A program made the translations under genes and the position numbers. Positions 3,124-58,618 of a DNA stretch of 64,000 nucleotides are shown here, in pieces. The notes beneath the pieces were generated by a model. It searched no databases. It was not told the origin of the DNA and was given only the letters and a program-made list of their open reading frames with translations. Numbering within the stretch: the first letter of the stretch is position 1; every line of letters starts with the position of its first letter. This DNA comes from Candidatus Levyibacteriota bacterium (GTDB lineage: Bacteria; Patescibacteriota; Microgenomatia; Levybacterales; UBA12049), in NCBI GenBank assembly GCA_016188975.1, contig JACPGQ010000008.1, positions 17,812 to 81,811 of the forward strand, given 5' to 3'.

Positions 3124-3124
3124 T

Positions 3125-3229
3125 TGTCATTGCGAGCCCTGAAAGGGCGAAGCAATCTCTTATAATAACTTGCTTCAATTGTATAAGATTGCTTCGTCGG
3201 TCGCCTTAGGCGACCTCCTCGCAATGACA
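3125..3229. mobile_element. MITE-like element, copy A. Terminal inverted repeats are TGTCATTGCGAG and CTCGCAATGACA.
   Basis: Perfect 12-bp terminal inverted repeats enclose an internal palindrome (GCGAAGCAATCT / AGATTGCTTCG). The same architecture recurs at 30306-30397, 57680-57803 and 57917-58024. Confidence 0.6.
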
Positions 3230-3886
3230 CGAGAAGTTCTATATAATACAAACGTGACTAAGGAAGAAAAAGTCAAAGAAATTATTAAACGGCTCCGCAA
3301 GGTATACCCCCACCCAAAAACTGCGCTCAATTTCTCAACCCCCTTAGATCTTCTCGTCGCGACAATCATGTCAGCACAAACCACTGATAAATTAGTCAAT
3401 ACGCTCACACCAGCATTATTTGCAAAATATAAAACTGCCAAAGATTACGCTGATGCTCCCGTGGAAGACATCACAAAACTGATTAGCAAAGTGAACTTTG
3501 CTAATAATAAAGCAAAGAATATTAAAGCAGCAGCACAAATTATCGTTGAGAAGCACGAAGGAAAAGTGCCTGATAACATGGAGGAGCTCGATGCGTTGCC
3601 TGGAGTCGCAAGAAAGACTGCCAATGTTGTCCTTGGCAATGCGTATCACAAAGCAGAGGGAATCGTCGTTGACACGCACGTCATGCGTTTATCCCAAAAG
3701 CTTGGGCTAACTGATAAAAAAGATCCGGAGAAAATCGAGCAGGATCTGATGCAAATAGTTCCAAAAGAAGATTGGATCGACTTCGCCCACATGCTTATCC
3801 TCTTCGGCCGCGAATACTGCCCTGCACGTCCTCACAAATGCGACGATTGCCCCCTCAGCGACCTCTGCCCCGATCAAAAAGTTTAG
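3224..3886 (+). CDS. nth: Endonuclease III (HhH-GPD DNA glycosylase with a C-terminal 4Fe-4S Cys cluster)
   Basis: HhH-GPD motifs (LPGVARKTANVVL) and C-x6-C-x2-C-x5-C at the C-terminus. I prefer the start at MTREVLYN (3224) over the longest-ORF start at 3170, which reads through the MITE. Confidence 0.85.
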   Translation: MTREVLYNTNVTKEEKVKEIIKRLRKVYPHPKTALNFSTPLDLLVATIMSAQTTDKLVNTLTPALFAKYKTAKDYADAPVEDITKLISKVNFANNKAKNIKAAAQIIVEKHEGKVPDNMEELDALPGVARKTANVVLGNAYHKAEGIVVDTHVMRLSQKLGLTDKKDPEKIEQDLMQIVPKEDWIDFAHMLILFGREYCPARPHKCDDCPLSDLCPDQKV

Positions 3887-4379: not shown

Positions 4380-5006
4380 TTACATCAACTCATCCAGTAG
4401 AGGACTAATATCAATATTTTCTAGTGATTGTTTCACAAGCGGCTTTTGCGCAATTTGCGGCGTGCCGTCTTCCCAGGTCGGGCGATCTTCTTTGAAGAAA
4501 ATTCCAGTTGCTACTTTTTCTTTCTCTCCTTCTTTGACTGGTCTCCGGAGTGGCCACTCTTCTGCTCTCTCAAACGCCTGCATCTTATTGGTCATATCAT
4601 GGCCTTGCTCCTGAAGTTTGTAGACTCTCTCATAAAACCAAGCGAATGTGTTGTGGTGATTGAACGTCACACATGGCTGCATGGTGTCTATGATTGAGAA
4701 ACCTTTGTGTTTGATCGCCTCAACGAGTAGCTCCGTCTCCTGTTTGTTATCCCCAGCATACCCCCGAGCGACGAATGTTGCTCCAGCTGAAAGTGCTAGC
4801 TGCATCGCATTGACCGGTGCTTCAACGACCGGCACCGGAGTTGCTTTATTTTTCTCACCAATGTTAGTTGTGGGTGAGAATTGTCCGGTTGTTAATCCAT
4901 ATACCTGATTGTCATGAATAAGAAGTGTCAAATTCACATTTCTCCTGGCTGCATGTAGCCAGTGATTGCCTCCCTCTGCAAATTGATCGCCGTCTCCCCC
5001 AATCAC
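4380..5006 (-). CDS. korB: 2-oxoacid:ferredoxin oxidoreductase beta subunit, C-terminal TPP-binding part. A frameshift separates it from the N-terminal part.
   Basis: GDGD...GGNHWLHAARRNVNLTLLIHDNQVYGLTTGQFSPTT is the canonical TPP-binding region of KorB/PorB. The ORF starts at a GTG embedded in a GTGA overlap with the upstream ORF. Confidence 0.7.
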   Translation of the reverse strand: MIGGDGDQFAEGGNHWLHAARRNVNLTLLIHDNQVYGLTTGQFSPTTNIGEKNKATPVPVVEAPVNAMQLALSAGATFVARGYAGDNKQETELLVEAIKHKGFSIIDTMQPCVTFNHHNTFAWFYERVYKLQEQGHDMTNKMQAFERAEEWPLRRPVKEGEKEKVATGIFFKEDRPTWEDGTPQIAQKPLVKQSLENIDISPLLDELM

Positions 5007-6274
5007 GATAACAGTCCAATCCCCGAGACGAGAACGACCTCCCAGGGCTTCAAATCCAGCTGAACAATAGCGTTCTTCAAAGAAACCCAGATTCCGAAGT
5101 CTCCACAGTTATGGAGGATTGCGTTTTCCGTGACGTATGCGTTTTCTGTATCGACCTCAAGATTGTGTACTGGACCCTTATATCGTTGTTTTTCAATCTT
5201 TCTGATTGGTAAGAATGCAAAGTTTTGGGTAAGTAAGTGCCTTTGCGGTACAAATTCTTGCTCATTATTTACGACCAAACCTAAAATTTCTTTTAACTTA
5301 ATGCAATCTCTAGGGCCATACACCCATATGGAATAGGCCGTCTTGTGCATTCCATGAGCTCCCTGAACAGATACAGTTGGTAGAATTGCCTGTCGTAACA
5401 GTAGCATTTTTACCTGCTCTGTAAGCTTCTTCGAAATAGTCCTCAAGCAAGCACTATGCCTTTTTCTGCTTTTTCCTACCCAGCCGTCACCACGCCACAT
5501 ACCCTTAATAAGTTCTTTCTGCTTTTCTTTGGGCAAAAACATTACAAAATCTGGAATCTTTTTATTTGCAGCCCCTTTTCCAAACCACCCCTCAAACATT
5601 TCTGAGAGATATGATGAATTAAATGAAAGGTCAATCGTCTTTCTCCCTTTTCGGTATCGTTTTATTGAGAAGAGACCAAAAAGCTTCTGCATAATTGCTA
5701 CGACATCCTCTGCATACATTTCTTCTCGGGAATGAAAGGTAAAGTTGATAGATCTTCTATGGACGTACCCCTCCGCTATATAATAGCCTGCCAGCCGGAG
5801 AAATTCCGCTTCCAATGGAACACTTGAGGGTAATCCCTTACTTTTTGTATCTTTCTTCCTTTTTATGAAGGAAATATCTATATGCCCTATATCTTTCTCA
5901 GTTTTCAAAATTGGATATACTAGACGATCGCCTTTTTTAAGTTCTCTTGCCTCGACCCACTGTGATTGGTATTCAAGATTTTTACGTCTTAAATGTTCAT
6001 GTTTTATCGTCAATACAGGATGTTCAGGTGTTAGCGTAGTTTCTCCAAAATATCTTGAAACAAGCCGATACATAATGCCATCATGTATGTGAGATAAAGC
6101 TTCAGTAACTTCATGAGGCATTCCATCGCTACCAATAACTCTATCTCCCGTTTTGAGAGTAGATATCAATGCCGTAGAGGGATTAGTTTGAATATAAGTC
6201 TCTGGTATAGTACATCCTGGGCACCAATTCGGCTTGTCGTAGTCAATTTGTAAATCTTGTAGTGTCGTTGCCAT
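5003..6274 (-). CDS. korB: 2-oxoacid:ferredoxin oxidoreductase beta subunit N-terminal part, carrying a 369-aa LAGLIDADG intein
   Basis: The extein MATTLQDLQIDYDKPNWCPG is followed by an intein (CTIPETY...ENAILHN), then the extein CGDFGIWVSLKNAIVQLDLKPWEVVLVSGIG. Confidence 0.75.
   Translation of the reverse strand: MATTLQDLQIDYDKPNWCPGCTIPETYIQTNPSTALISTLKTGDRVIGSDGMPHEVTEALSHIHDGIMYRLVSRYFGETTLTPEHPVLTIKHEHLRRKNLEYQSQWVEARELKKGDRLVYPILKTEKDIGHIDISFIKRKKDTKSKGLPSSVPLEAEFLRLAGYYIAEGYVHRRSINFTFHSREEMYAEDVVAIMQKLFGLFSIKRYRKGRKTIDLSFNSSYLSEMFEGWFGKGAANKKIPDFVMFLPKEKQKELIKGMWRGDGWVGKSRKRHSACLRTISKKLTEQVKMLLLRQAILPTVSVQGAHGMHKTAYSIWVYGPRDCIKLKEILGLVVNNEQEFVPQRHLLTQNFAFLPIRKIEKQRYKGPVHNLEVDTENAYVTENAILHNCGDFGIWVSLKNAIVQLDLKPWEVVLVSGIGLLS
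5108..6214 (-). other. Intein with a LAGLIDADG homing-endonuclease domain, inserted between WCPG and CGDF of KorB
   Basis: Block A starts with Cys (CTIPETYI). Block B is TPEHPVLT. The two dodecapeptide motifs are LAGYYIAEGYV and MWRGDGWVG. Blocks F/G are VHNLEVDTENAYVTENAILHN, followed by the +1 residue Cys. Confidence 0.8.
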
Positions 6275-14414: not shown

Positions 14415-15998
14415 TTATTCGCCAGTATAGCGACTGAGTTTATAGACTTTAACAACTGACACTCTCCACTCATCGACAATTTCTGCTCTACCAAAACCAG
14501 CTACCTCCCACAGTGAATTTCCCAAAGGCTTGCAACTTGTATCCTCACAAATAATAAGCAGTTGATCAGTGACGGTCTTTCGCATAGGGTCAATTGTTTC
14601 GTTTTCAATAGTTACAGGTGGCCTACCGGCAAGCTCAAAAAAATACCGATATGCATGGTCTGAGTTTCCTTTTGTGAGAAGGGCAAAATTAAAAGGCTTC
14701 CCTCCTGCTTTTTCCATGACAAACTCTGCGATCATTTTTACCTGATCTTTCTGCCTATTTGGTGATGATAGAAACGGTGCCCCCTTGAGGTTGAAAAAAA
14801 GAAGCCAAGAAAAAGCAAATAGCCCAAGGACAACTCCAATTATATTTAGTCTCTTACTCTTTACAATTGTTGCAAGTGCGTTACCGAGAAGGAGAAATGG
14901 TGCAGGAAACATAAAACCAAAATAATAATCATGAATCGGCTTCTTATAAAAGCCGAAAAGAATAATTCCGAGAAAAAACCACAGTGCGATAAGTGAATAT
15001 TGCAGTATCTTTTTCTCGTCTTTTTTCGTGTAATACTTGTAGAATTGCCAAGCAAAAATACCAGTGCTCACAATTGCAAGTATTACTGTTGCGTAATACC
15101 ACAGTGCAATACCTTGATTTGTTTGTACCGAAACTTGCTCCGGCGGAGGAAAACGGGTAATAAGCCTCCCAAAAAGCCTGAAAAAAACATTTCCCAAGAC
15201 ATCTTGAAACGCCATCCCAGTCTTATAACTTGATGAAAATGTATTGGTGAAAATAAAATTTAGTATTGTTCGGAAATTTGGAAAACCATGCCTGACCTCA
15301 AATGCTAGAAACGGTGAAAATCCGATGAGGAAACCAATAGACATCCTTGACAGAGGATGGAGCATGCTCGGAAACACTCTCTTCCTGGCTCTCATCCAAT
15401 GAGCTATGAAAAGATAGATCAGGACAATGACTCCCAAAAATGTCGCGAGGTAATGAAGTTGCATCGTGATGCCGAAAAGAACACCAATCAGGATGTATAA
15501 TCTCCGTTTTTCCTCAGCAACAGCTTTGTAAAGAAGGAAGAGCACGACGAGAGAGAAAAATGGCATTGGGTTTGGGTTCCAAGACGATCTTGAATAAGCG
15601 ATAACAACGGGTGAAACGGAGTAAAGTGCTGCAGCAAAAAGTGAAGCGGTTGACCCAAAAAATTGTTTTCCTACAAAATAGATGAGCCACACTGTAACTG
15701 TGCCGATAATCCCGATCATGATTGCTGGGCCAATAGGATCAAAATTCCATAGCCATAAAAAAGGGGCCATGAAATAGTAATAAATAGGACCGAGGAAAAA
15801 ATCACCTGCCGAAGCCCGGGGACCAAGGAGTGTCAAATCACCGAGTAAAATATTTCTGACGACGAGGACGTCTCTCCCTTCATCACCCAAAAACGTGAGG
15901 TAGTCGCCGATTCTATACAACCTCAGAAAGCCTGCACCACAGACGACGAGAAAAACAAAAAGTGACTCAAGTGAAAGCAGTCTGCGGAAAAATTTCAT
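14415..15998 (-). CDS. Polytopic membrane glycosyltransferase, GT39/PMT/ArnT-like
   Basis: More than ten predicted TM helices, with the first loop reading LGDEGRD (the DE-type motif of PMT/ArnT-family transferases). I prefer the start at MKFFRRLL (15998) over the longest-ORF start at 16067. Confidence 0.5.
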   Translation of the reverse strand: MKFFRRLLSLESLFVFLVVCGAGFLRLYRIGDYLTFLGDEGRDVLVVRNILLGDLTLLGPRASAGDFFLGPIYYYFMAPFLWLWNFDPIGPAIMIGIIGTVTVWLIYFVGKQFFGSTASLFAAALYSVSPVVIAYSRSSWNPNPMPFFSLVVLFLLYKAVAEEKRRLYILIGVLFGITMQLHYLATFLGVIVLIYLFIAHWMRARKRVFPSMLHPLSRMSIGFLIGFSPFLAFEVRHGFPNFRTILNFIFTNTFSSSYKTGMAFQDVLGNVFFRLFGRLITRFPPPEQVSVQTNQGIALWYYATVILAIVSTGIFAWQFYKYYTKKDEKKILQYSLIALWFFLGIILFGFYKKPIHDYYFGFMFPAPFLLLGNALATIVKSKRLNIIGVVLGLFAFSWLLFFNLKGAPFLSSPNRQKDQVKMIAEFVMEKAGGKPFNFALLTKGNSDHAYRYFFELAGRPPVTIENETIDPMRKTVTDQLLIICEDTSCKPLGNSLWEVAGFGRAEIVDEWRVSVVKVYKLSRYTGE

Positions 15999-16012
15999 AC
16001 ATACTCTCGGCG

Positions 16013-17149
16013 CTATACTTTTCTCTTCTTCCGCCAGATTATTTTTCGATACATGGTAAAATTCCACATGAGCAGGAAAAATGTACCAGCCAGGAAGTAG
16101 ATTCTGTAATACTGTTCACCATAGAGCATATCACCAATTTGTATCGTTCCTGACTGAATAAAAATCACACCTGTATTTGATGTTGCAAAAAAACCGATCA
16201 TCTTCTTTAAGTAAGAAAAAATACTTGTCGACTTCTGAGCTTTGAACGTCCAAACATTATTGAAGTTAAAGTTTGAGAAAATTGCAGTCTGAGCTGCAAA
16301 AATGTTTGCGAGGGCTATTGGTAAATCCGTATTGCGGACGAGAATCTCGTAGAAAACTGCGTTCAAAATAAAACCAAAACCACCAACAATTAAAAATTTA
16401 GGAAATGAGCTATGTAAAACTTCTCTCGTACGCGCAGTAAAAATATACTTGAGCAAATTAAAAATATACTCTTTAGGAGCTATTTTCGAGTTCCCCAGCG
16501 TTCTGTCTGAGAAATGAAAAGGAACCTCTGCTACAGTATATCCGTCTTGTACCGACTTGTGGAGAAATGAGACCTGGAAGGTATATCCCCGGAATTCCGT
16601 AAGCCTGTCTTTCTCTTTGAGGAAGACGTCTTTTTTTATCGCCCTATAGCCACCTGTCCAATCATGTATTGAAAATCGACCGAGTACTGTTCTTACCAAC
16701 AGATTACCGAAAATCGAGTACGCTTTACGAATGAGCGGCCAGTTAGACGGCACAGAGCCTCCACCACTATAGCGAGTTCCAATCACGACGTCATACCCGT
16801 CATCAATTTTTTTTAAAAATTCAGGAATTTTTTTTGGGTCATGCTGTCCGTCTGCATCAAACTCAAACATGACATCTGCCTGCATTTTCTCAACGGCGTA
16901 CGTCATGCCTCTAATGTATGCAGCACCCAATCCATGTTTCTCTCCCTGCACGATGTCAATATTTTTCCATTCCTTCATCATTTTTTTCACCTCTTCTGCA
17001 GTCCCGTCTGGAGAGTTATCATCAGCAACTAAAATTGCCAGAGAATAATTGGTGATTTGTGGAACTATATCTTTCTCAAGTGTCTTGATAATAGGCTCAA
17101 TATTTCCTTTTTCGTTATAGGTAGGAATGATAATAACTACTTTTTTCAT
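16013..17149 (-). CDS. GT2 polyprenyl-phosphate sugar synthase (Dpm1/GtrB-like) fused to a C-terminal GtrA-like TM domain
   Basis: IIIPTYNEKGNI...VADDNSPDGT is a GT-A fold with DxD. The C-terminal four TM helices are GtrA-like. Confidence 0.65.
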   Translation of the reverse strand: MKKVVIIIPTYNEKGNIEPIIKTLEKDIVPQITNYSLAILVADDNSPDGTAEEVKKMMKEWKNIDIVQGEKHGLGAAYIRGMTYAVEKMQADVMFEFDADGQHDPKKIPEFLKKIDDGYDVVIGTRYSGGGSVPSNWPLIRKAYSIFGNLLVRTVLGRFSIHDWTGGYRAIKKDVFLKEKDRLTEFRGYTFQVSFLHKSVQDGYTVAEVPFHFSDRTLGNSKIAPKEYIFNLLKYIFTARTREVLHSSFPKFLIVGGFGFILNAVFYEILVRNTDLPIALANIFAAQTAIFSNFNFNNVWTFKAQKSTSIFSYLKKMIGFFATSNTGVIFIQSGTIQIGDMLYGEQYYRIYFLAGTFFLLMWNFTMYRKIIWRKKRKV

Positions 17150-18108
17150 ACCGTCTTAAAATATTCGATTGTTTTATCAATACCCTCTTCGACTGACACC
17201 TTAGGACTCCACCCAAGCTGCGTTTTTGCTTTCATAATATCCGGGTTTCGACGCTTTGGATCATCCTCCGGAAGATCCATATTCTCAATGGCAAGAGAAG
17301 GATCAATCTTCTTCTTGATAAGCTCAGCGATGTCTTGTATTGTTCGTTCATCCGTATTTCCTAGGTTAAAAACATGCCCGCTACTTCCAACTGTGAACAT
17401 CGCGCGAACAAGTCCATCTACCATGTCATGAACGTAACAAAAGCTTCTCGTCTGCAACCCATCCCCATAAACGGTAAGCGCTTGATGAGCGAGAGCTTGA
17501 TTAATAAAATTTGAGACTACTCTCCCATCATCTTTTTGCATTGACGGACCATAGGTATTAAAAATTCTAATAACCCTGGCATCGAGTCCATACTTTCGTA
17601 TAAACCCAAACGTCATTGCCTCGCCGAAGCGTTTTCCCTCATCATAGACGGAGCGCGGTCCGTTTGGATTGACGTTTCCAAAATATGTTTCTTTTTGCGG
17701 AGACTGTTCAGGATCCCCATATACTTCTGAAGAAGAGGTATACAGAAATGACGCACCGTGGTCTTTTGCCAAAAGCAGCATATGATACGTACCGACGCTA
17801 TTAACGAGTAGCGTTTCTATAGGATATGCGATGTAGCTTTTTGGGCTGTTTTTGTTTGGAGAAGCTGGGGATGCAAGGTGAAAAATATGATCTATCTTTT
17901 CTTCTCCGTACACGTTTGTATCATATGGAGAAGTGACATCACGTTCTAAAAAACGAAAAGAGGAGTCAGCCTCTAAGTCAGCAATATTTTCTCTTTGGCC
18001 GGTAAGGAGATTATCAACGCAAATCACACTATTGCCATCTTTAAGGAGACGGCGGGATAGATGTGAACCAATAAAACCAGCACCTCCTGTAATAAGGATT
18101 CTTGCCAT
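17146..18108 (-). CDS. uxs: UDP-glucuronate decarboxylase (UDP-xylose synthase)-like SDR
   Basis: ILITGGAGFIGSHL, YDEGKRFGEAMTF and RIFNTYGP match UXS-type extended SDRs. Confidence 0.65.
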   Translation of the reverse strand: MARILITGGAGFIGSHLSRRLLKDGNSVICVDNLLTGQRENIADLEADSSFRFLERDVTSPYDTNVYGEEKIDHIFHLASPASPNKNSPKSYIAYPIETLLVNSVGTYHMLLLAKDHGASFLYTSSSEVYGDPEQSPQKETYFGNVNPNGPRSVYDEGKRFGEAMTFGFIRKYGLDARVIRIFNTYGPSMQKDDGRVVSNFINQALAHQALTVYGDGLQTRSFCYVHDMVDGLVRAMFTVGSSGHVFNLGNTDERTIQDIAELIKKKIDPSLAIENMDLPEDDPKRRNPDIMKAKTQLGWSPKVSVEEGIDKTIEYFKTV

Positions 18109-18167
18109 ATTTCTATCTTATATGAAATCGGTAAAATGAGAAAGTCATGTATGAAGAATACCGAGGA

Positions 18168-19145
18168 CTAGCTGATATTTTTTTGCTCGCTTGCGATATC
18201 TGCCTTAACCATCATTTCTACAAGTTCGGCAAATAAGGTTCGTGGCTTCCATCCAAGAACTTTCTTTGCTTTACTATAGTCACCAATTAGGTAATCGACC
18301 TCAGCAGGACGCATGAACTCATGCTTGTTTGGCACGACGTATTTTTTCCAATCAGAAATACCAACTGTCTTAAAAGCGAGCTGCACAAATTCCTCAACAC
18401 TATGGTTTTCACCTGTTGCGATAACATAATCATCTGGCTCATCTTGTTGCAGCATGAGCCACATTGCTTCGACATAATCACCTGCAAATCCCCAGTCCCG
18501 TTTCGCGTCCAGGTTCCCAAGTTCTATGGTCTTCTGCTTACCCAGATGAATTCTCGCAACTCCATGCGTGATTTTTCTCGTCACAAACTCCAAGCCACGC
18601 CTCGGAGACTCGTGGTTAAAAAGAAGCCCTGAGCTGGCAAAAAGATTATAACTCTCCCGATAGTTAAGCGTAATGTAGTGTCCGTAGACTTTTGCTACCC
18701 CGTAGGGACTTCGGGGATAAAATCTCGTCGTTTCCTTCTGCGGCGTCTCAGTAACTTTACCAAACATTTCAGAAGATGAAGCCTGGTAAAATTTGATCTT
18801 TGGATTCACGCTCCGGATCGCCTCAAGCATTCTGGTAACTCCAATTGCCGTAAATTCTCCTGTCAAAACCGGCTGCGTCCATGACGTTTTAACAAATGAC
18901 TGAGCTGCAAGGTTATATACTTCATCCGGATTTGACTCCCTTATCGCTTCTGTGAGTGAGCTCTGGTCTAAAAGGTCTCCTGAGAGGAGTGTTATTTTAT
19001 CTTGTATCTGTTTTATATTGCCAAAATTTTGCGTGCTTGTTCGTCTTGTGAGGCCGTAAACGGTATAGCCTTTATCAAGTAGCAATTCTGCAAGATACGA
19101 TCCGTCTTGCCCCGTAACACCCGTGATAAGCGCTGTTTTTGCCAT
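18168..19145 (-). CDS. gmd: GDP-mannose 4,6-dehydratase
   Basis: [19 protein letters not shown] and [19 protein letters not shown] are GMD signatures. Confidence 0.85.
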
Positions 19146-26370: not shown

Positions 26371-26685
26371 TTAACTATACACTGGTTCAATCAACTCGCC
26401 AAGGGGTTTCCCGTTTATCGGGACATTGAGGAGAAAACCTAAAGCGTTCGCGACCGAAGCGCCCACACGAAGTCCAGTAAATGAACCCGGACCTTCGCTT
26501 ACATGTATAGCTGCAATATCCTTCAGCTGCAATGTGTGTTTCCGCAGAAGCTGATCCACAAGCGATAACACCTCTTGTGGATTTTCTTTTCCTCTATTTC
26601 CCCTTGCTGCGTACTTTCTTCCTTCAATCGTAATCCCAACGATAATCTCATCGCTTCTTGCTGTATCAATGGATAGGACTACCAT
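26371..26685 (-). CDS. tsaB: tRNA t6A biosynthesis protein TsaB (YeaZ), short N-terminal-domain-only form
   Basis: GPGSFTGLRVGASVANALGF is the YeaZ signature. At 104 aa it is far shorter than the ~230 aa typical of TsaB. Confidence 0.55.
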   Translation of the reverse strand: MVVLSIDTARSDEIIVGITIEGRKYAARGNRGKENPQEVLSLVDQLLRKHTLQLKDIAAIHVSEGPGSFTGLRVGASVANALGFLLNVPINGKPLGELIEPVYS

Positions 26686-27585: not shown

Positions 27586-28203
27586 CTATGGTCGGATAAA
27601 CCTCGATGCTGAGACGACCAGAAATATTCCAGTCGCGTTGAGAAGAAATGAGATGAGGATAAACTGGTATGTTTTCATCTTCGAAATTCCCATGAGGCTT
27701 ATTCCAATTTCATCGGGAAAAGGAGACGCGATAATAAGTGCGCCAATAACAGGAAGCGTCCAACTAAAATATTTTGAATGAAGAATACGCCTAAAATGGT
27801 GGTCTCCATCAATATGCTCATAAAGTGACGCAATCTCCTGCGTGAGGTTATTTTTGATGATGTGAAAAATCGTCACATCTCCCACGACTCCTCCAAGGCC
27901 TGCAATAATGCCTATTTCAACTGGTGATAACCTCTCGGCAAGAATGAGTAAAATGATAGCTCCAGTCGCGACAGTAAAGGTGGAGACGAAAAGCATGCCT
28001 GCGATAAAAGCCCCTATGTAGCCTAACTCTCCTAATCCAAGCAGATAGGAATGGAGCGACTCATTCCGAAAGACAAAAAAAGCGAGAAGGAGTGAGAGGA
28101 AGAAAAACGAAAGATTTTTATATCTCCATGATCTCCAGTAGCTCATACTTTCAGTATAACAGAGACATTCGCTTGTCGATTGTACCCACACAGAAGCTCC
28201 CAA
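27586..28203 (-). CDS. Integral membrane protein, function unknown
   Basis: Multiple TM helices. The real start is possibly at the internal MSYWRSW. Confidence 0.3.
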   Translation of the reverse strand: MGASVWVQSTSECLCYTESMSYWRSWRYKNLSFFFLSLLLAFFVFRNESLHSYLLGLGELGYIGAFIAGMLFVSTFTVATGAIILLILAERLSPVEIGIIAGLGGVVGDVTIFHIIKNNLTQEIASLYEHIDGDHHFRRILHSKYFSWTLPVIGALIIASPFPDEIGISLMGISKMKTYQFILISFLLNATGIFLVVSASRFIRP

Positions 28204-29670
28204 TGTATTTTTCCTAACAGGAGCAGTATAATCCTCTCAGTGGAACAGGCAGTCTGGGATCTCAAATCGCAATGCGAGAACTATCGTAACTCTGAAGTAT
28301 TTGACTGTATGGTTGCAGAGTTTCTGCTGTCATATGGGAAATACTCTCCTGAGCTATGGGACGTTCTTAATCGGTACAAAGTTGAAACACTTGAGGAACT
28401 CAAGAAAAAACAAAGGGGGAAACTTTCTGCACTTCCTAAGCTTCACAGTCTTTTTTCTGATATCGAGATGCCACTTATTCGAGTGCTATGGGAGATGGAG
28501 CGGGAGGGAATACTTCTGGACAGTGACTGCCTGAAAAAAGTTGGACATGGATTGGATGCTGCAATTATGTCTGTTGCGGATGAGATTAAAAAAGAAGTCG
28601 GATTTGACATCAATCTCAACTCTTCTGTGCAAATAGGTAATTTTTTGGCAGAAAAAGTGGGGGTACCTCTTACAAGAACCAAAACCGGCCGCTTTGCGAC
28701 CAATGAAAACGAGATAGCACAGTACGCAGAACAATTTCCCATCATCAAACAACTTTTGACATACCGTGAACTGAGCAAGCTTCGCTCAACCTACGTTGAT
28801 AGCCTGATAACAAAAGTTGACAGGATGGGGCGTGTCCATACGACGTACCATCAAGTAGCGGTAAATACAGGAAGGCTTGCCTCTTCAAATCCAAACATGC
28901 AAAATATCCCTGTCACTTCCGAGTTTGGGCTCAAGATCAAATCCTGTTTTGTTGCAGGACCTCAAAAAAAACTTCTCTCGTTTGACTATTCCCAACAAGA
29001 ATTGCGCATCCTGGCGCATCTGACCGGAGAGGAAAAATTAATCGAGGCATTTCGCGCTGGTAGAGACGTCCATAGAACCACAGCGAGTCAGCTGTTTAAG
29101 GTCGACTATATGGATGTCACAAAGGAGCAACGGATTATTGCCAAGACAATAAATTTTGGCATTATTTATGGCATGAGTAGCTTCGGGATGAGTCAGGGAC
29201 TACACATTCCGGTAGAGGAGGCGCACATGTTTATTGACACGTTTTACCAAACGTATCCGAAAATCAAGACGTATTTCGACAATTATATTAATCGCGGGAA
29301 AATTGATGGGTTTGTCGAAACGCTTTTAGGGAGAAGACGGTATGTTTTTGAGTATCCAGGACAGAAGTTTATCGACAACAACATGCGCCGAGTACTTCTG
29401 AACTTCCCAATCCAAGGATCAGCAGCTGATCTTATGAAAAAAGCGATGGTGCAAATATATTATGATCTTCTTCAAAAAAATCACTCCATCAAATTGCTGC
29501 TGCAAATACATGATGATTTGGTTTTTGAAGTCCAAGACGATAAAGAGAAGATAACATCCATCATTGATCAGATAAAAGAAATAATGTGCAATATCTATCC
29601 ACTCGCAGTTCCGGTTGAGGTTGATGTGAAAATTGGAAAAAATTGGGGAGATATGGAGAAAATTTTATAG
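28180..29670 (+). CDS. polA: DNA polymerase I, polymerase (palm/fingers/thumb) domain only
   Basis: Motif A is DYSQQELRILAH, motif B is RIIAKTINFGIIYGMS, and motif C is QIHDDLVFE. The ORF begins within the tail of the 3'-5' exonuclease domain, with a TTG start at 28180 or ATG at 28309. No 5'-3' exonuclease region is nearby. Confidence 0.8.
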   Translation: MYPHRSSQCIFPNRSSIILSVEQAVWDLKSQCENYRNSEVFDCMVAEFLLSYGKYSPELWDVLNRYKVETLEELKKKQRGKLSALPKLHSLFSDIEMPLIRVLWEMEREGILLDSDCLKKVGHGLDAAIMSVADEIKKEVGFDINLNSSVQIGNFLAEKVGVPLTRTKTGRFATNENEIAQYAEQFPIIKQLLTYRELSKLRSTYVDSLITKVDRMGRVHTTYHQVAVNTGRLASSNPNMQNIPVTSEFGLKIKSCFVAGPQKKLLSFDYSQQELRILAHLTGEEKLIEAFRAGRDVHRTTASQLFKVDYMDVTKEQRIIAKTINFGIIYGMSSFGMSQGLHIPVEEAHMFIDTFYQTYPKIKTYFDNYINRGKIDGFVETLLGRRRYVFEYPGQKFIDNNMRRVLLNFPIQGSAADLMKKAMVQIYYDLLQKNHSIKLLLQIHDDLVFEVQDDKEKITSIIDQIKEIMCNIYPLAVPVEVDVKIGKNWGDMEKIL

Positions 29671-30305: not shown

Positions 30306-30397
30306 TGTCATCGCGAACGAATGAAATGAGTATGGCGATCTCACATAAATAAATCCATTTTAAGAGATTGCTTAGTCGCAAGCTCCTCGCAATGACA
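30306..30397. mobile_element. MITE-like element, copy B, with slightly degenerate terminal inverted repeats
   Basis: TGTCATCGCGAA ... CTCGCAATGACA. The internal segment GGCGATCTCA is inverted relative to copy D. Confidence 0.5.
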
Positions 30398-30405
30398 GAG
30401 GAAGG

Positions 30406-35261: not shown

Positions 35262-36485
35262 TTATCTGACAAAATCCACCAAGAGGGCCAGTGCTGCGGC
35301 AGACATGACGAAGATCGTGACGACAGCGAAGATGTTTTGCAGAAAACCATTAACCTTTCCTCTCATCACAATTTTGTCATTGGCAATAAGGAGAATCATG
35401 ATAAGCAAAGGGGGCGCAATAAGGCCGTTGAGAATTGCCGTGTAATAGAGTGCCTGAATGGGATTGAGACCGATGAAATTAATAAGTAAGCCGATGAGCG
35501 TTGCGATTGTTATGACACCGTAAAATCCATGAGCTTTACGAAGCTTCAGATAAAGTCCTGCACTCCAATTGAAAGATTCGGCAACCGCGTAAGACGCGGA
35601 TCCTGAAAGGATGGGAACTGCCAAAAAACCAGTACCAATAATACCTGCAGCAAAAAGAACAAATGCAAAATCACCTGCAAGAGGCCGAAGCGCCTCTGCT
35701 GCCTGCTGTGCTGATTCAATAAGGATGATAAACCACATCGTTACATTGGAAAAAAACATCCCCATCGCAGTATCGAAGCTTAGGTGCGTGAGGTCTTTGG
35801 GTGTAACTTTCGGTATGCCTTTTCCAAATCGCCGGAGCTTATGGTGCGCTATTTCCTCCTCTACTTCCTCATTGGCCTGCCAAAAAAACAAATACGGAGA
35901 TATCGTCGTTCCAAAAACAGCAACAATATTCATCAGATATAACTTAGAAAACTCGAGATGAGGAATCAGCGTTGATCTGAGAGCCTGCACCCAGTCGACT
36001 TTTATAACAAAAGCAGTTGCGATATAGGCCAGAAGCGACATGGCAAGGTACTTGAGGAATTTGACGTACGTTTTGTAGGTAATAAATATCTCAAGAACCA
36101 AAATGATAACAGTCATGATGATGAGCCAAAAAACAAACGGCAAATCGATAAGAAGCGACGCCGATGCCGCCATCGCACCGAGGTTTGCGCCGATATTGAT
36201 GGTGTTGGCGATGAGAAGCAGCGTAACCGCAGTATAGAGCATTGATTTTGAGTAGTGCCGTTTGATAACGCCAGCAAGCCCGTGTCCTGTGACAAGTCCG
36301 ATGCGACCGCACATCTCCTGTACGCTTGTCATAAGAGGAAAGGTGAACAGGGCGGTCCACAGCTGGGTGAAGCCAAAAATCGCGCCGGTCTGTGCATACG
36401 TCGCAATTCCCGAGGGGTCATCGTCAGAGGCGCCTGTGATAAAACCTGGGCCTAATATTTTTAGGAATTTTTTAATGCGATTCAC
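35262..36485 (-). CDS. mntH: NRAMP-family divalent metal (Mn2+/Fe2+) transporter
   Basis: [19 protein letters not shown] is the Nramp consensus; 11-12 TM helices. Confidence 0.8.
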
Positions 36486-37126: not shown

Positions 37127-37847
37127 CTACGAGAGGTATGGGGAAATCTCCGTTGTTATCTTTCCGTTTGTTAGGAGAAAATCAGAGGAAAAGACGTTCC
37201 ATGAGTCACCAGTCAGACTTTGGATTGTTGCACCGGCTTTTTCTGCAATCAGAAGAGCAGCGCCAATAGCTACCGCGGCTTTCAATTGCACGAACGTTCG
37301 GCAAGACTTTTTCAAGGATCCTGAGTGTCTGCATTCTTTTTTGAATATCCCATGACCAATCGCAACACAGGAGTGCTTGCTTGAGTGTCTCAGTTGACGA
37401 AACATGAATCGGAGTATAGTTGAGATAGGCTTGGCTCTCGTCTTGTTGAGCCCAATACAATTTCTTCTCAAGGGGAAGGTATACAACTCCTACTTTAGGT
37501 TTTCCTAAACTGACAAGCCCAACTGAAATTGCAAAATGCTTGCTTCCTCGCGAAAAATTTGTTGTCCCATCAATCGGGTCAATAACCCACAGGTTTTCTT
37601 TCTCAATAAAAGTCGTATATTCAGATGGTGCGGTCTCCTCAGTCAAAAACTCAGTTGTAGGGAATTTTCGGAAAAGTTCCTCCCGAAGAAATGCGTCGAT
37701 GGCATCATCTGCCTCTGTTGCGAAATCAACCCCTCCTTTACTGTGTGTTTTGAATCCTTGTTTGAGAAAGCTATAAATACGCTCACCCGCAGCGGTAACG
37801 ACAGCGACAACTTGCTCTCTTATCGAAGTGAGTTCTCCATCCATCAC
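37127..37847 (-). pseudogene. Inositol monophosphatase-family (SuhB/CysQ-like) gene split by a +1 frameshift
   Basis: Frame 1 carries DPIDGTTNF and ends just after ...RAIESRGS. The WD-AAG / EAGG region (AIGAALLIAEKAGATIQSLTGD) continues in the +1 frame (ORF 37127..37486). The ~23-aa AALDL.YVAAGR segment normally between them is absent. Confidence 0.5.
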
Positions 37848-41554: not shown

Positions 41555-41938
41555 GTGCTCTATCAATACATATGGTATACTCAAGAGGCTATGAACATAA
41601 AAGCGCTGCAAGAAAAGATAAAACGATTCAATGAAAAAACACGACCAAAATATAAACTCTACTCACAGACTGAGAAAGAAATATTAACAAAAACGATAAA
41701 ACTCAATGAGGAAGTTGGAGAACTCTGCAATGATATTCTTTCTGTTCTTAAGCTACAACGGAGGTCAAAACTCGCAAAATTTGACAAGCGGAATTTTTAT
41801 GAAGAATTTGCCGATGTCATTATCACTACCTTCCAACTCGGTAGCGTCGCGGGCGTCGACATTGAACGCGCGATTAATGATAAACTGAAAAAAATTGAAA
41901 AGCGATATCACTTGGAGAAAGATCGAATAGAAAGCTAA
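41555..41938 (+). CDS. MazG-like nucleoside-triphosphate pyrophosphohydrolase (small form)
   Basis: EEVGELCNDIL and EEFADVIITTFQL are EExxE/D MazG motifs. The start may instead be at MNIKALQ (41591), which has an AAGAGG Shine-Dalgarno. Confidence 0.6.
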   Translation: MLYQYIWYTQEAMNIKALQEKIKRFNEKTRPKYKLYSQTEKEILTKTIKLNEEVGELCNDILSVLKLQRRSKLAKFDKRNFYEEFADVIITTFQLGSVAGVDIERAINDKLKKIEKRYHLEKDRIES

Positions 41939-42236
41939 TGACCCTCTATCCTTTCTGACCAATAAAAAACACATCCATCACTCCCAACGACTGCTTCATG
42001 GACAGTATTTCCGGGGATAATCATTTTGTCACCAGGCTTACAATGATATATCTTACCAACGACAGTAACATCCATTGATCCCAGAGAAAAACAAGAAGTT
42101 TCGTTTCTGGATGCTGATGCTTAGGATAGACGTATCCTACACTATTGGAAATTTGTATCGGATCAAATCCCCCCTGACGAATATCAGCTGCTATCTTGTC
42201 TTCATGGATCTGTTTATAGTATCCTTTTTTATACAT
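41935..42236 (-). pseudogene. Cupin-domain protein interrupted by a 1-nt frameshift at a G run
   Basis: Cupin motif 1 (YPKHQHPETKLLVFL) lies in one frame and motif 2 (KPGDKMIIPGNTVHEAV) in the -1 frame. One extra G in TGGG near 42051-42053 would restore a single ~100-aa cupin ORF. Confidence 0.45.
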
Positions 42237-50334: not shown

Positions 50335-50530
50335 AAAAAACCCCGATTTCTCGGGGTGCAAAACTCCACATAAACAATCTGCAGACTTTCCCTTCTTTCA
50401 TCCCGACTATACGGTCGACGCTGGGATATACCAGACTCGTGTCCAACACTTAGGTCAGACTCGTGGGTTTAGAACGTTAAAGCGAAGCTTTTTACGTTCC
50501 TATACCACCGATTAGGATTTCCACCTTGCC
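50335..50530 (-). promoter_or_regulatory. FMN riboswitch (RFN element) with an intrinsic terminator/sequestrator abutting the ribE start
   Basis: On the minus strand: CCUUCGGGGCAAGGUGGAAAUCCUAAUCGGUGGUAUA...GUCUGGUAUAUCCCAGCGUCGACCGUAUAGUCGGGAUGAAAGAAGG. This matches the conserved RFN P1-P6 core (UUCGGGGCAGGGUGAAAUUCCC...GCCGACGGUAUAGUCCGGAUG.GAGAG). It is followed by CACCCCGAGAAAUCGGGGUUUUUU. Confidence 0.8.
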
Positions 50531-50644
50531 CCGAAGGAATGTGCGTTAATTGTACCATAAAAATTCCAGGATTTCTTAAGATTTAATTTTATGCATGCGG
50601 TAGCAAAAATGGATGTTTGATTGATAAATCAATCTTAAAGGTTA

Positions 50645-56489: not shown

Positions 56490-57672
56490 TTATTTTTTAG
56501 AAGTAATGATATCTTTTCCAATATATTTTCTTAAAACTTCAGGAATAATAACGCTACCATCTTTCTGTTGGTAATTTTCTACAATAGCAACAAGTGTACG
56601 TCCAATGGCAAATGCAGTGCCGTTTAAAATATTCACAATTTTTTTTTCATTGCCGTCTTGATACTTGATATTCAACCTCCGCGATTGAAAATCTGTAATT
56701 GTTGATGCAGATACACATTTTGACAACCTGGTACGGAATATCCAACGACTGGAAAAATTTTTCTTCCAAAGAAACAAAATACTCATGCTCTTTGTCATCC
56801 TCTCCTTGTGGGACATAGGATACCATCTCTACTTTGTCAAACTGATGGACTCTGATAATGCCTTTTGTGTCTTTTCCATAACTTCCCGCTTCACGACGAA
56901 ATGCTGTTGAGAATCCGACATAACGACGGGGCAAATCTTTTTTGAGAAAAACTTCATTCTTATGCATGGGTACAATGCTATGCTCTGCTGTCCCGACCAA
57001 CACGAGGTCATCTTTGGGAATCTGAAACATATCTTCATCTCCTCCGTGTTCCATATATCCCATTGCACGCATCGAATCTGTCTTGATGAGGACTGGCGGC
57101 ACAACCGGAATAAATCCTTCTTTTATCAGCGTTTCGAATGCAAATTGTACAAGCGCAAATTCCAGGAGCGCTGCTTCGTTTTTGAGATATGCAAACCGGG
57201 CCCCTGAGACTTTTGCGGCTCGGTCGATATCAATAATGTCTAGTATCTGTCCGAGCTCAACATGGTCTTTTGGAGTAAATGAAAGTTTTGTTGGCTCTTT
57301 ATGTTTGCGGACAACTTCGTTTTCTTTATCGTTTTTCCCAACCTTTACATCGGGCTTTGCGGGATTGGCCACTTGGCGAAGCAGCATATCCAACTCTTCT
57401 TTGAGAGCAGCCAATACATGTTCTTCTTTCTCAAGCTTGTCTTTTAACTCTCTTCCTTTTTCTCTATATGAATTTCTTTCCTCTTCAACCGCGTTTGACG
57501 CGGCTTTCGTAAATGCATTTCGCTCTTCACGAAGACCCTGCACTTTTTGCAAAACGCCAAAATACGCCCTCTCTATCTCTAAAAGGTGGTTGATATCAAC
57601 AGGATAATTCTTGTCTTTCGCAGACTTTGAGACAAGCGATGGGTTCTCGCGGATATACTTTATATCGATCAT
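56490..57672 (-). pseudogene. serS: Seryl-tRNA synthetase interrupted by an internal ~75-nt deletion plus a +1 frameshift
   Basis: ORF 56647..57672 encodes SerS up to ...DIPYQVVKMC. ORF 56490..56816, in the +1 frame, encodes TDFQSRRLNIKY...LNGTAFAIGRTLVAIVENYQQKDGSVIIPEVLRKYIG. The canonical TGDLGFSAAKTYDLEVW.P.Q..YREISSCSN block between these is not encoded in any frame. Confidence 0.6.
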
Positions 57673-57679
57673 ACTTCTC

Positions 57680-57803
57680 TGTCATTGCGAGGAGCCATGC
57701 AGGGCTGCGCTGAAACGACGAAGCAATCTAATACAAAACTTTCGTCTTGTAGAGAATTGTTTCTAAGAGATTGCTCTCCGCCAACTGGCGAATCACAATG
57801 ACA
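57680..57803. mobile_element. MITE-like element, copy C, starting 8 nt upstream of the serS start codon
   Basis: Terminal inverted repeats TGTCATTGCGAG ... (T)CACAATGACA, with internal GACGAAGCAATCT / AGAGATTGCTC inverted repeats. Confidence 0.55.
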
Positions 57804-57916
57804 ATCTTAGGTGATTATACTGCGAATTCGCAGGGGAAGCAATTTTCTATCTACTCTCTGCTCCACGCTCTTAGCCCTTTGCCACAACGTAACTATTCAG
57901 TTCTTTCCAATGAACT

Positions 57917-58024
57917 TGTCATTGCGAGCCCCGATTGAATCGGGGCGAAGCCACGTACCGTACGGTACATGGCGAAGCAATCTCATGAGATCGCCACAGC
58001 TACATCAATAGCTTCGCGATGACA
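57917..58024. mobile_element. MITE-like element, copy D
   Basis: Terminal inverted repeats TGTCATTGCGAG ... CTTCGCGATGACA. Internal hairpins are CCCGATTGAATCGGG and CGTACCGTACGGTACATG. Confidence 0.55.
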
Positions 58025-58114
58025 ACCTGTCGGAGAAAACTGAATAGGTGCTCCTAAACGTTATACGCTTTTCGCTAAACGCTAGATCTTGCATTGGCAT
58101 GATAAAATATATGC

Positions 58115-58618
58115 ATGATTCTTTCAGGCAGAAAAGGCATCATCTGGCTCTTTCCTCTCATCCTATCTTTTTTACCTCTGATAGCTGTTTCTCCAATGAC
58201 GAAGTCAGTTGTCAAAGTTGAGTCTACGGACGGCTCGTCCAATGTACGCGTGGAGAACGATACTTCTTCATCAAATACAACGACGACCACGACCACGACT
58301 GGCAGAACCGATATCGTCATCGAATGCAACGGCGTCAAAAAAGAATACCATTCAGACAAAGCAGAGAATGTGACACTCAATTGCGATGACAGCACTACAG
58401 GAACTGTCAAAAGCGAAGTAAAGATCAGTAACAATACGTCATCAGCAACGACCTCACCAAACCCGACGATTGAAGAAGCCAAGAAAAAAATTGCAGAGAA
58501 AAAAGAGGAAATAAAAAAAGAAGTCAAAGCTGCGAAAGAAAAAATCAAAGAGCGCAATGATTTATTTGAAGAAATCACCCACATGATCCGCGAATTCTTC
58601 AAAAACTTCCACTTTTAA
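58115..58618 (+). CDS. Small secreted Ser/Thr-rich protein (signal peptide, poly-Thr run, Lys/Glu-rich C-terminus)
   Basis: The signal peptide is IIWLFPLILSFLPLIAVSP. An antisense ORF of similar length (58075..58602) exists, so the strand assignment is uncertain. Confidence 0.4.
   Translation: MILSGRKGIIWLFPLILSFLPLIAVSPMTKSVVKVESTDGSSNVRVENDTSSSNTTTTTTTTGRTDIVIECNGVKKEYHSDKAENVTLNCDDSTTGTVKSEVKISNNTSSATTSPNPTIEEAKKKIAEKKEEIKKEVKAAKEKIKERNDLFEEITHMIREFFKNFHF

What the first reader, a model, noticed from the sequence alone, without database searches (positions are those of the whole stretch)
56490..57672. Essential seryl-tRNA synthetase gene carries an internal deletion plus frameshift that removes the serine-binding TGDLGF...EISSCSN block
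The SerS N-terminal coiled coil and the catalytic core through motif 2 are intact up to ...SLDIPYQVVKMC (frame A). The conserved 30-aa segment that follows in all SerS sequences (TGDLGFSAAKTYDLEVW.P.Q..YREISSCSN) is not encoded in any frame. About 18 nt later the reading frame shifts +1 and resumes with TDFQSRRLNIKY...LNGTAFAIGRTLVAIVENYQQ... (motif 3 and the C-terminus), giving two overlapping ORFs (56647..57672 and 56490..56816).

This is the only serS in the window and it looks non-functional, which is unexpected for an essential gene. A MITE-like element sits 8 nt upstream of its start codon.

The IMPase gene (37127-37847) shows the same signature. korB (4380-6274) pairs a homopolymer frameshift with a ~105-nt missing block. 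All three cases lose a 70-110 nt block (length 3n+1) at a conserved core. A fourth gene (cupin, 41935-42236) has only a 1-nt frameshift with no missing segment.
Basis: seen in the sequence. Interest (0 to 1): 0.6.

Follow-up and report, generated by a model that had tools for sequence, protein, structure and literature searches.

The report
Assembly-error deletion splitting serS gene
The seryl-tRNA synthetase gene really is broken in this sequence by an 83-base gap, but independent assemblies of the same groundwater bacterium carry the gene intact, so the break is almost certainly an error in one public draft genome, not biology.

Summary
serS is split into two overlapping ORFs (56647-57672 and 56490-56816, minus strand), and the block between motif 2 and motif 3 is not encoded anywhere in the window.

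The cause is a single exact 83-nt deletion at window 56712|56711. There is no separate frameshift.

The window matches a public NCBI Candidatus Levybacteria MAG contig (84,659 bp, locus tags HYV40_). Five independent Logan assemblies of sequencing runs that carry this organism hold an intact 421-aa serS. Their flanks are otherwise identical to the window over up to 7.5 kb.

The same comparison shows two more MAG-only deletions:
- 106 nt in the intein-containing 2-oxoacid:ferredoxin oxidoreductase beta gene ("korB")

A fourth deletion of about 74 nt in the IMPase gene is inferred only from 70%-identical homologues.

Lengths are 3n, 3n+1 and 3n+2, so there is no 3n+1 rule. No junction has more than 1 nt of microhomology. 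The truncated products of mntH and IMPase appear only in the NCBI MAG record, and those of serS and korB appear nowhere in the collection.

The likely source study scaffolded MEGAHIT contigs with IDBA-UD, a route known for local assembly errors.

Verdict: an assembly artefact, not a real feature. The separate cupin frameshift is present in three independent assemblies and is unrelated.

The parts
56713..57672 (-). serS 5' part: start codon to codon 320 (...DIPYQVVKMC). It covers the N-terminal coiled-coil arm and the class II core through motif 2. The ORF then runs out of frame to a stop at 56647.
   Evidence: ORF list. Pfam Seryl_tRNA_N and tRNA-synt_2b positions 8-105. 100% identical to residues 1-320 of intact P0001.
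56711..56712 (-). Deletion junction. 83 nt present in independent contigs (L001 1212-1294) are absent here. One ambiguous base (A) is the only microhomology.
   Evidence: Base-by-base walk from both flanks; BLASTN of L001-L005 against the window.
56490..56711 (-). serS 3' part in the shifted frame: SASTITDFQSRRLNIKY...GKDIITSKK plus stop. It contains motif 3 and the C-terminus.
   Evidence: ORF 56490-56816. Pfam tRNA-synt_2b positions 113-179. tblastn places the P0001 C-terminal part (HSP residues 337-421) at window 56744-56493; the base-level walk shows it is identical downstream of the junction.
57679..57804 (.). MITE-like element bounded by imperfect terminal inverted repeats (CTGTCATTGCGAG ... 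ATCACAATGACAA), 6 nt upstream of the serS ATG. It is a neighbour of the gene and not part of the defect.
   Evidence: Inverted repeat I1. Motif enriched in the window, 8 matches against 2.2 expected. Alignment with copies at 57916-58025 and 3124-3230.
5015..5017 (-). Second MAG-only deletion junction. 106 nt (L068 3434-3539, encoding GCSSKLPYWVKTYGFNGLHGRPMPVAEGIRLANSGL) are missing from the 2-oxoacid:ferredoxin oxidoreductase beta gene ('korB', 4380-6274). One ambiguous base (G).
35721..35722 (-). Third MAG-only deletion junction. An in-frame 39 nt (L080 906-944, TAGTVLHANGITT) is missing from the Nramp/mntH gene, giving 407 aa instead of 420 aa. No microhomology.
37267..37269 (-). Inferred fourth deletion junction in the inositol monophosphatase gene. 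About 25 codons (roughly 74 nt) present in all homologues are absent, and the frame changes.
   Evidence: tblastn of P0122 and P0124: residues 1-192 in one frame end at 37269, and residues 218 onward in another frame start at 37267. Sequence. No same-strain intact copy is on record.

Best explanation
The split serS is a local assembly error in one public metagenome-assembled genome (an NCBI Candidatus Levybacteria MAG, 84,659-bp contig, locus tags HYV40_). It is not a property of the organism.

Shown: during assembly or scaffolding of that MAG, 83 nt inside serS were dropped. Segments of 106 and 39 nt were dropped in two other genes of the same 64 kb, and about 74 nt appear to be missing from a fourth. 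The two flanks were joined directly, with no Ns.

Inferred: the real population has a normal, contiguous 421-aa type-1 bacterial SerRS. The most likely route is that adjacent contigs ended on either side of a short stretch that was not assembled, and were butt-joined by a scaffolder that judged the gap to be zero or negative. The probable source study scaffolded MEGAHIT contigs with the IDBA-UD scaffolder. The exact algorithmic step is not shown.
For: 1. An intact allele exists in the same population. P0001 (421 aa) is 100% identical to the window's serS fragment. It is encoded on five Logan contigs from five runs: SRR12113383, 384, 420, 424 and 430.
2. Those contigs match the window exactly on both sides, with 1 mismatch in 7.4 kb for L001. 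The only other difference is an exact 83-nt block. P0001 aligns end to end with solved SerRS 2dq3.
3. In total, 25 Logan contigs from 9 runs tile 47.9 kb of the window at 99.76-100% identity. The only differences of 39 nt or more are three deletions in the window (83, 106, 39 nt). There are none in the opposite direction.
4. No deletion allele is seen outside the NCBI MAG. The 407-aa mntH (MBI2442512.1) and the 212-aa IMPase (MBI2442514.1) have only NCBI as source. The intact 420-aa mntH is on 5 Logan contigs. The truncated serS and korB products are absent from the 15-billion-protein collection.
5. The defect is in the public record and was not introduced into the window. NCBI accessions run consecutively across both loci: MBI2442533 SecA to MBI2442534, and MBI2442478 to MBI2442479. 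serS and korB therefore have no protein there, and the locus-tag numbering leaves a spare tag.
6. All 62 related genome loci returned by the serS scan (mostly Levybacteria/Microgenomates MAGs) match P0001, and nearly all of them over residues 1 to about 417-421 without a break.
7. The pattern is implausible as biology. There are four deletions in 64 kb, three of them frameshifting, in serS, a TPP enzyme, a transporter and IMPase. SNP divergence from the population is only 0.1-1.1 per kb, and the 'pseudogenes' show no further decay.
8. Microhomology at the junctions is only 0-1 nt. There are no flanking repeats and no unusual hairpin potential.
9. An independent assembler breaks at one junction. 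Contig L083 starts at window 35720, 1 nt from the mntH junction.
10. He et al. 2021 (PMC7906910) assembled with MEGAHIT and scaffolded with IDBA-UD, and describe no correction of local errors. Chen et al. 2020 (PMC7111523) report local assembly errors as prominent with IDBA-UD, count 13 in one 1.13-Mb CPR genome, and note that they put wrong gene sequences into public databases. SRR12113421, a run with a neighbouring accession number, is documented as He et al. data from the Modesto site.
Against: - No reads could be examined, so lack of read support at the junctions is inferred and not shown.
- The run from which the MAG was assembled is not identified. No Logan run is SNP-identical to the window. 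A run-specific strain therefore cannot be excluded formally.
- The link from the MAG to He et al. 2021 rests on the organism name, on 99.8-100% nucleotide identity to contigs from runs whose accession numbers neighbour a documented run of that project, and on my recollection of that project's locus-tag and accession series.
- A simple 'mis-estimated overlap' model predicts spurious tandem duplications as well as deletions. None is present, and there are no Ns in the window.
- Some MAGs of that project are unscaffolded MEGAHIT co-assemblies (contig names k141_...). The IDBA-UD scaffolding step may therefore not apply to this contig.
- The IMPase case has no same-strain comparator.
Confidence: 0.9

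Rival explanations
1. The deletions are genuine and belong to a particular strain. The MAG represents a real lineage in which serS, korB, mntH and IMPase were recently hit by short deletions. It would be undergoing pseudogenisation, perhaps surviving on a second serS or on products from a host or sibling cells.
For: The sequence as deposited carries the deletions. The MAG's source run is unidentified and no Logan run is SNP-identical to it. One independent contig breaks at the mntH junction, which allelic heterogeneity there could also cause. CPR bacteria are host-dependent.
Against: The intact alleles are found in every run where the loci were assembled. The deletion alleles are never found outside the MAG. 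Four deletions against a handful of SNPs in 64 kb, three of them inactivating conserved genes including the only aminoacyl-tRNA synthetase for serine seen here, with zero secondary decay, is not what recent natural pseudogenisation looks like. L083 starts 1 nt away from where a two-allele branch would place it. No second serS is present in the window.
Confidence: 0.05
2. The deletion-bearing molecules are real but rare. Defective genomes or library chimeras in a high-coverage sample gave the assembler a shortcut path, and it wrongly preferred that path. The junctions would then exist in a few reads but not in the viable genome.
For: This would explain joins with no microhomology and no Ns, and why only deletions are seen. 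Some MAGs of the probable source project come from deep co-assemblies with coverage of 162-368x.
Against: Nothing observed here requires it. Chimeric reads are not recurrent at one position. No Logan assembly yields the junction products. In practice the outcome is still an assembly artefact.
Confidence: 0.04
3. serS is expressed in spite of the break, either by programmed recoding or bypassing, or as a two-piece enzyme.
For: The two ORFs overlap and together cover most of SerRS.
Against: The missing 27-28 codons include the TGDLGF strand and the YRE glutamate of the catalytic core, and they are encoded nowhere in the window. No frameshift or bypass can restore sequence that is absent. The same population encodes an ordinary contiguous gene. 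No structured RNA element is detected around the site.
Confidence: 0.01

Closest known systems
Local assembly errors in metagenome-assembled genomes, as described by Chen, Anantharaman, Shaiber, Eren and Banfield 2020 (PMC7111523; detected with ra2.py)
   Same: - Short stretches of consensus that differ from what the population carries.
- They sit inside otherwise perfect scaffolds and produce truncated or frameshifted genes in public records.
- The frequency is similar: 13 per 1.13 Mb in their CPR example, against 3-4 per 64 kb here.
- They are associated with IDBA-UD, the scaffolder used in the probable source study.
   Different: That paper defines such errors by the absence of perfectly matching reads. 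Here the evidence is indirect and comes from independent assemblies of runs that carry the same organism. All cases here are clean deletions of 39-106 nt, with no garbled sequence, Ns or wrong repeat counts.
Bacterial type-1 seryl-tRNA synthetase (for example Aquifex aeolicus 2DQ3, Thermus thermophilus 1SES/1SER)
   Same: The intact allele P0001 aligns over residues 1-418 with 2dq3 residues 1-423 (E = 3e-102). It has the N-terminal coiled coil, the motif-2 region, TGDLGF, YRE.. and motif 3.
   Different: The copy in the window lacks residues 321-348 and is frameshifted. This lineage has EVTSAST where most SerRS have EISSCSN.
Genuine pseudogenes of essential genes in decaying symbiont genomes
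   Same: An internal deletion plus frameshift in a housekeeping gene.
   Different: True pseudogenes are reproducible across independent data and usually show further substitutions. This disruption is absent from every independent assembly, and the flanks are identical to the intact allele.

Membership tests
Seryl-tRNA synthetase (class II aaRS, bacterial type 1) | N-terminal antiparallel coiled-coil tRNA-binding arm | tested here: met
   Pfam Seryl_tRNA_N, residues 1-103, E = 2e-16.
Seryl-tRNA synthetase (class II aaRS, bacterial type 1) | Contiguous class II catalytic core containing motif 2, the TGDLGF...YRE block and motif 3 in one reading frame | tested here: not met
   In the window the core is split. 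Profile positions 8-105 are in one ORF and 113-179 in another, and 83 nt are absent. The feature is met by the same-population allele P0001.
Local assembly error in a MAG | The variant is found only in the one assembly and not in independent assemblies of the same population | tested here: met
   Intact serS in 5 runs, intact korB in 1, and intact mntH on 5 contigs (two of them, L080 and L081, verified at base level). Deletion products are found only under NCBI MAG accessions or not at all.
Local assembly error in a MAG | No read from the source sample supports the consensus perfectly at the site (the criterion of Chen et al. 2020) | not testable with these tools
Only assembled Logan contigs could be retrieved.
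Local assembly error in a MAG | The site coincides with a contig end or scaffold join | tested here: inconclusive
   One independent contig (L083) begins 1 nt from the mntH junction. No contig ends were seen at the serS or korB junctions. The MAG's own contig-to-scaffold map is not available.
Genuine pseudogene | The disruption is reproducible in independent sequence data from the lineage | tested here: not met
Genuine pseudogene | Relaxed constraint, seen as additional substitutions or indels in the disrupted gene | tested here: not met
   There are zero differences from the intact allele across the whole gene apart from the 83-nt block.
MITE-like repeat (the upstream neighbour) | Small size, terminal inverted repeats, several copies in the genome | tested here: met
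   Elements of 107-126 nt at 57679-57804, 57916-58025 and 3124-3230, sharing the TIR TTGTCATTGCGAG and internal GAAGCAATCT/AGATTGCTTC arms. Logan contigs from all runs break inside the 57916-58025 copy.
MITE-like repeat (the upstream neighbour) | Target-site duplication and a cognate transposase | not tested
   Not examined.

The most novel reading that the evidence does not exclude
The deletions are real and linked on one chromosome. That would mean a Levybacteria lineage that recently suffered a burst of short deletions with no microhomology, knocking out serS and other core genes, and that persists only by complementation from co-resident intact siblings or a host. This would be a 'defective genome' sub-population in an episymbiotic CPR bacterium.
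Probability: 0.04. Interest if true: 0.6.

Novelty: not a real feature. Interest (0 to 1): 0.07.

Why it matters
The biological significance is low, because the organism almost certainly has an ordinary serS.

The practical significance is modest:
- One 64-kb stretch of a deposited CPR genome contains three or four silent deletions. They create two apparent pseudogenes (serS and the 2-oxoacid:ferredoxin oxidoreductase beta subunit) and two wrong protein records (MBI2442512.1 mntH, 13 residues short; MBI2442514.1 IMPase, truncated and labelled hypothetical).
- If that rate held genome-wide, it would mean several dozen errors per megabase. Errors at that rate would lower completeness estimates and could generate false 'missing function' or 'gene decay' claims for CPR bacteria.
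- The case shows that comparing a MAG with per-run assemblies of the same project exposes such errors quickly.

Tried and rejected
- Second serS, or the missing block encoded elsewhere in the window: none found.
- The source genome among the GTDB species representatives: absent, with the best relative at 71% identity. An exact 30-mer in the JGI metagenome contigs gave 0 hits.
- Deleted block as a sequence conserved between species that tangles the assembly graph: not supported. The block shares fewer exact 14-20-mers with the 62 related loci than its flanks do.
- Mis-estimated overlap joins, which should also leave tandem duplications or Ns: none in the window.
- Hairpin or secondary structure in the deleted segments as a cause: z-scores of +0.31, -1.67 and +0.26, which are unremarkable.
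- Repeat- or microhomology-mediated deletion: only 0-1 nt of homology.
- A shared 'CTG' at two junctions was noted but is unexplained, and it does not hold at the mntH junction.
- Same-strain intact IMPase: not on record, searched with both the N-terminal and the C-terminal part.
- RNA elements around serS: none.
- Identifying the exact MAG and run from the supplements of He et al.: the SRR numbers are not held. Several candidate Levybacteria bins exist, including a group at 41% GC and 9-102x coverage seen in five samples.
- A link between the MITE-like elements and the deletions: none. The deleted blocks are ordinary coding sequence without the TIR motif.

Full report
**What is in the window**

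On the minus strand, an ORF at 56647-57672 (341 aa) and an overlapping ORF at 56490-56816 (108 aa) together look like a seryl-tRNA synthetase.
- The first ORF matches Pfam Seryl_tRNA_N and positions 8-105 of the class II core model tRNA-synt_2b. The second matches positions 113-179 of that model.
- Against solved SerRS structures, the first ORF aligns from residue 1 to ...YQVVKMC and then stops resembling anything.
- A tblastn of the full-length protein and of the missing peptide finds no second serS and no other place in the 64 kb that encodes the missing block.

**What the lesion is**

A protein search with the 341-aa fragment returned P0001. It is 421 aa long and 100% identical over the whole homologous part of the query.
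- P0001 is encoded on five contigs assembled independently (Logan) from five runs: SRR12113383, 384, 420, 424 and 430. In each, SecA lies downstream, as in the window.
- BLASTN and a base-by-base walk give L001 1-1211 = window 57922-56712 and L001 1294-7515 = window 56712-50491, with one mismatch in 7.4 kb.
- The window therefore lacks exactly 83 nt (L001 1212-1294). These encode [28 protein letters not shown], and only one ambiguous base sits at the junction.
- Because 83 = 3n+2, this single deletion causes the frame change. There is no separate frameshift 18 nt later.
- The lineage's version of the SSCSN motif (SAST) is retained in the second frame.
- P0001 aligns end to end with Aquifex aeolicus SerRS 2dq3, residues 1-418 against 1-423, E = 3e-102.
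- From my memory of the Thermus SerRS structures, the glutamate of YRE in the deleted block is an active-site residue. I did not test this.

**Where the window comes from**

- The truncated IMPase product is identical to NCBI MBI2442514.1 (HYV40_01235), a protein of a Candidatus Levybacteria bacterium MAG on an 84,659-bp contig.
- Other window proteins carry accessions MBI2442474 to MBI2442540 from the same contig.
- Accessions are consecutive across both broken genes: SecA is ...533 and the next protein, at 58115-58618, is ...534. The 133-aa protein ending at 4377 is ...478 and korA is ...479.
- The locus-tag spacing leaves spare tags, and the window contains no tRNA.
- In the public record, therefore, serS and korB have no protein product. 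The defect belongs to the deposited MAG and was not introduced into the window.
- The species is not among the GTDB representatives, where the best relative is 71% identical. All 62 related genome loci returned match P0001, and nearly all of them over residues 1 to about 417-421 without a break.

**The wider pattern**

I fetched 25 Logan contigs from nine runs through exact look-ups of neighbouring proteins. They tile 47.9 kb of the window at 99.76-100% identity. Besides scattered SNPs, one 2-nt intergenic indel at about 58112 and a small cluster of changes around 45210 in one contig (L071), the only differences are three blocks missing from the window:

| Gene | Block missing from the window | Junction in window | Microhomology |
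|---|---|---|---|
| serS | 83 nt | 56712 / 56711 | 1 nt (A) |
| 'korB' | 106 nt (L068 3434-3539) | 5016 | 1 nt (G) |
| Nramp/mntH | 39 nt, in frame (L080 906-944) | 35722 / 35721 | none |

- 'korB' is a 666-aa 2-oxoacid:ferredoxin oxidoreductase beta subunit that carries a LAGLIDADG intein. The deleted block lies just before its GDG thiamine-diphosphate motif. There is no homopolymer frameshift.
- The mntH deletion shortens the protein from 420 to 407 aa.
- The IMPase gene shows the same kind of lesion when compared with 70%-identical homologues. About 25 codons are absent and the frame changes at about 37268. No same-strain intact copy is on record.
- The lengths are 39, about 74, 83 and 106 nt, so there is no 3n+1 rule.
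- The window has no insertions relative to the population, no Ns and no tandem duplications.
- The 'cupin' frameshift at 41935-42236 is base-identical in contigs from three runs. It is genuinely present in reads and is unrelated.

**Who carries which allele**

- The 407-aa mntH exists only as NCBI MBI2442512.1. The 420-aa form is on five Logan contigs.
- The 341-aa and 108-aa serS fragments and both korB fragments are absent from a collection of about 15 billion proteins that includes the Logan gene calls.
- No independent assembly therefore reproduces any deletion. Every assembly that spans a junction carries the full sequence.

**Mechanism**

Shown: the deletions are specific to one assembly. 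They have 0-1 nt of microhomology, no flanking repeats and no unusual folding potential. They are not unusually conserved at the nucleotide level. One independent contig (L083) starts 1 nt from the mntH junction, so at least that spot is hard to assemble.

From the literature:
- The probable source study is He et al. 2021 (PMC7906910). It assembled each filter with MEGAHIT, scaffolded the contigs with IDBA-UD's scaffolder, and reports no correction of local errors.
- SRR12113421, whose accession number neighbours those of the runs used here, is documented as that study's Modesto agricultural groundwater site.
- Chen et al. 2020 (PMC7111523) describe local assembly errors as prominent in IDBA-UD output, count 13 in one 1.13-Mb CPR genome, and warn that they propagate wrong gene sequences.

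Inferred: two contigs that ended either side of a short unassembled stretch were joined without Ns, because the paired-read gap estimate was zero or negative. I recall that the IDBA-UD scaffolder concatenates without verifying overlap in that case, but I could not check this.

Caveats: some MAGs of that project are unscaffolded MEGAHIT co-assemblies, the exact bin is unidentified, and only deletions are seen.

**Why it is not biology**

- Three frameshifting deletions and one in-frame deletion lie within 64 kb of a small CPR genome.
- They hit the only serS seen here and other conserved genes.
- They occur in a lineage that differs from the surrounding population by 0.1-1.1 SNPs per kb.
- There is no secondary decay.

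This combination is not credible as a living genotype. Recoding or a split enzyme cannot help, because the missing codons are encoded nowhere.

**Verdict**

- The interpretation as a non-functional essential gene is not supported.
- The best explanation is a MAG assembly or scaffolding artefact (confidence about 0.9).
- Novelty: not a real feature. Interest is low, apart from its value as a data-quality flag on a public record.
- Read mapping at the four junctions would settle it.

Noticed in passing
window 35721-35722 (gene 35262-36485, minus): An in-frame 39-nt deletion in the Nramp/mntH transporter gene relative to the same-population contigs L080 and L081. It removes TAGTVLHANGITT. The shortened 407-aa protein is deposited as MBI2442512.1.
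   Followed up: yes
window 4380-6274 (minus); intact copy at L068 2175-4175: The gene called 'korB' is a 2-oxoacid:ferredoxin oxidoreductase beta subunit interrupted by a roughly 330-aa intein with a LAGLIDADG homing-endonuclease domain (Pfam Intein_splicing, LAGLIDADG_3). The intein is inserted after ...NWCPGC near the N-terminus.
   Followed up: partly
window 57679-57804, 57916-58025, 3124-3230; partial copy near 30386-30398: A family of 107-126-nt MITE-like elements with the terminal inverted repeat TTGTCATTGCGAG and nested internal palindromes (GAAGCAATCT...AGATTGCTTC). Two copies lie between serS and the next gene. The exact TIR 13-mer gives only three exact matches among the 87 fetched loci: one is the same-organism contig L068 and two are in related genomes (L041, L055).
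   Followed up: partly
window 57922-57968: All Logan contigs coming from the serS side end at 57922, and all contigs coming from the other side start at 57968. Both points lie inside the second MITE-like copy and next to a 24-nt palindrome (57950-57973). This fits a multi-copy repeat that breaks k=31 assemblies.
   Followed up: partly
window 41935-42236 (minus): A small cupin gene is split by an apparent 1-nt frameshift near ...LLVFL|WDQW.../...MDVTVVGK. The sequence is identical in Logan contigs from three runs (L071-L073). The frameshift is therefore genuinely in the reads, unlike the 39-106-nt deletions.
   Followed up: partly
window 35720 (start of L083, run SRR12113422): An independent contig begins 1 nt inside the right flank of the mntH deletion junction. 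This suggests a reproducible assembly break point at that position. The cause is unknown.
   Followed up: partly
junctions at window 56712 and 5016: At both junctions the deleted block begins with CTG, and the retained right flank reads N-CTG (TCTGCA and ACTGTT). This may be coincidence or a trace of the joining algorithm. It is not seen at the mntH junction.
   Followed up: no
window 50386-50542 (minus): An FMN riboswitch (Rfam RF00050, 79.5 bits) lies upstream of the operon that starts at about 50369.
   Followed up: no
window ~58111-58112: A 2-nt (TG) indel relative to Logan contigs L076-L078, in the sequence ATATA(TG)TGCATG just upstream of the ORF at 58115-58618. It looks like ordinary dinucleotide slippage variation.
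   Followed up: no
window 6400-37100 (NCBI locus tags HYV40_01045 to HYV40_01235): The locus-tag arithmetic leaves two tags without a protein in this interval. One is korB and the other is unidentified. A 104-aa TsaD-family fragment at 26371-26685 and a short PolA-like gene at 28180-29670 are candidates. Both are also present in the Logan contigs.
   Followed up: no
L086, L087 (SRR4343428, SRR4343430) matching window 15979-18291: The same organism, at 99.9% identity, also appears in runs with an unrelated, lower accession series. It therefore occurs in at least one other dataset besides the SRR121133xx-134xx runs.
   Followed up: no
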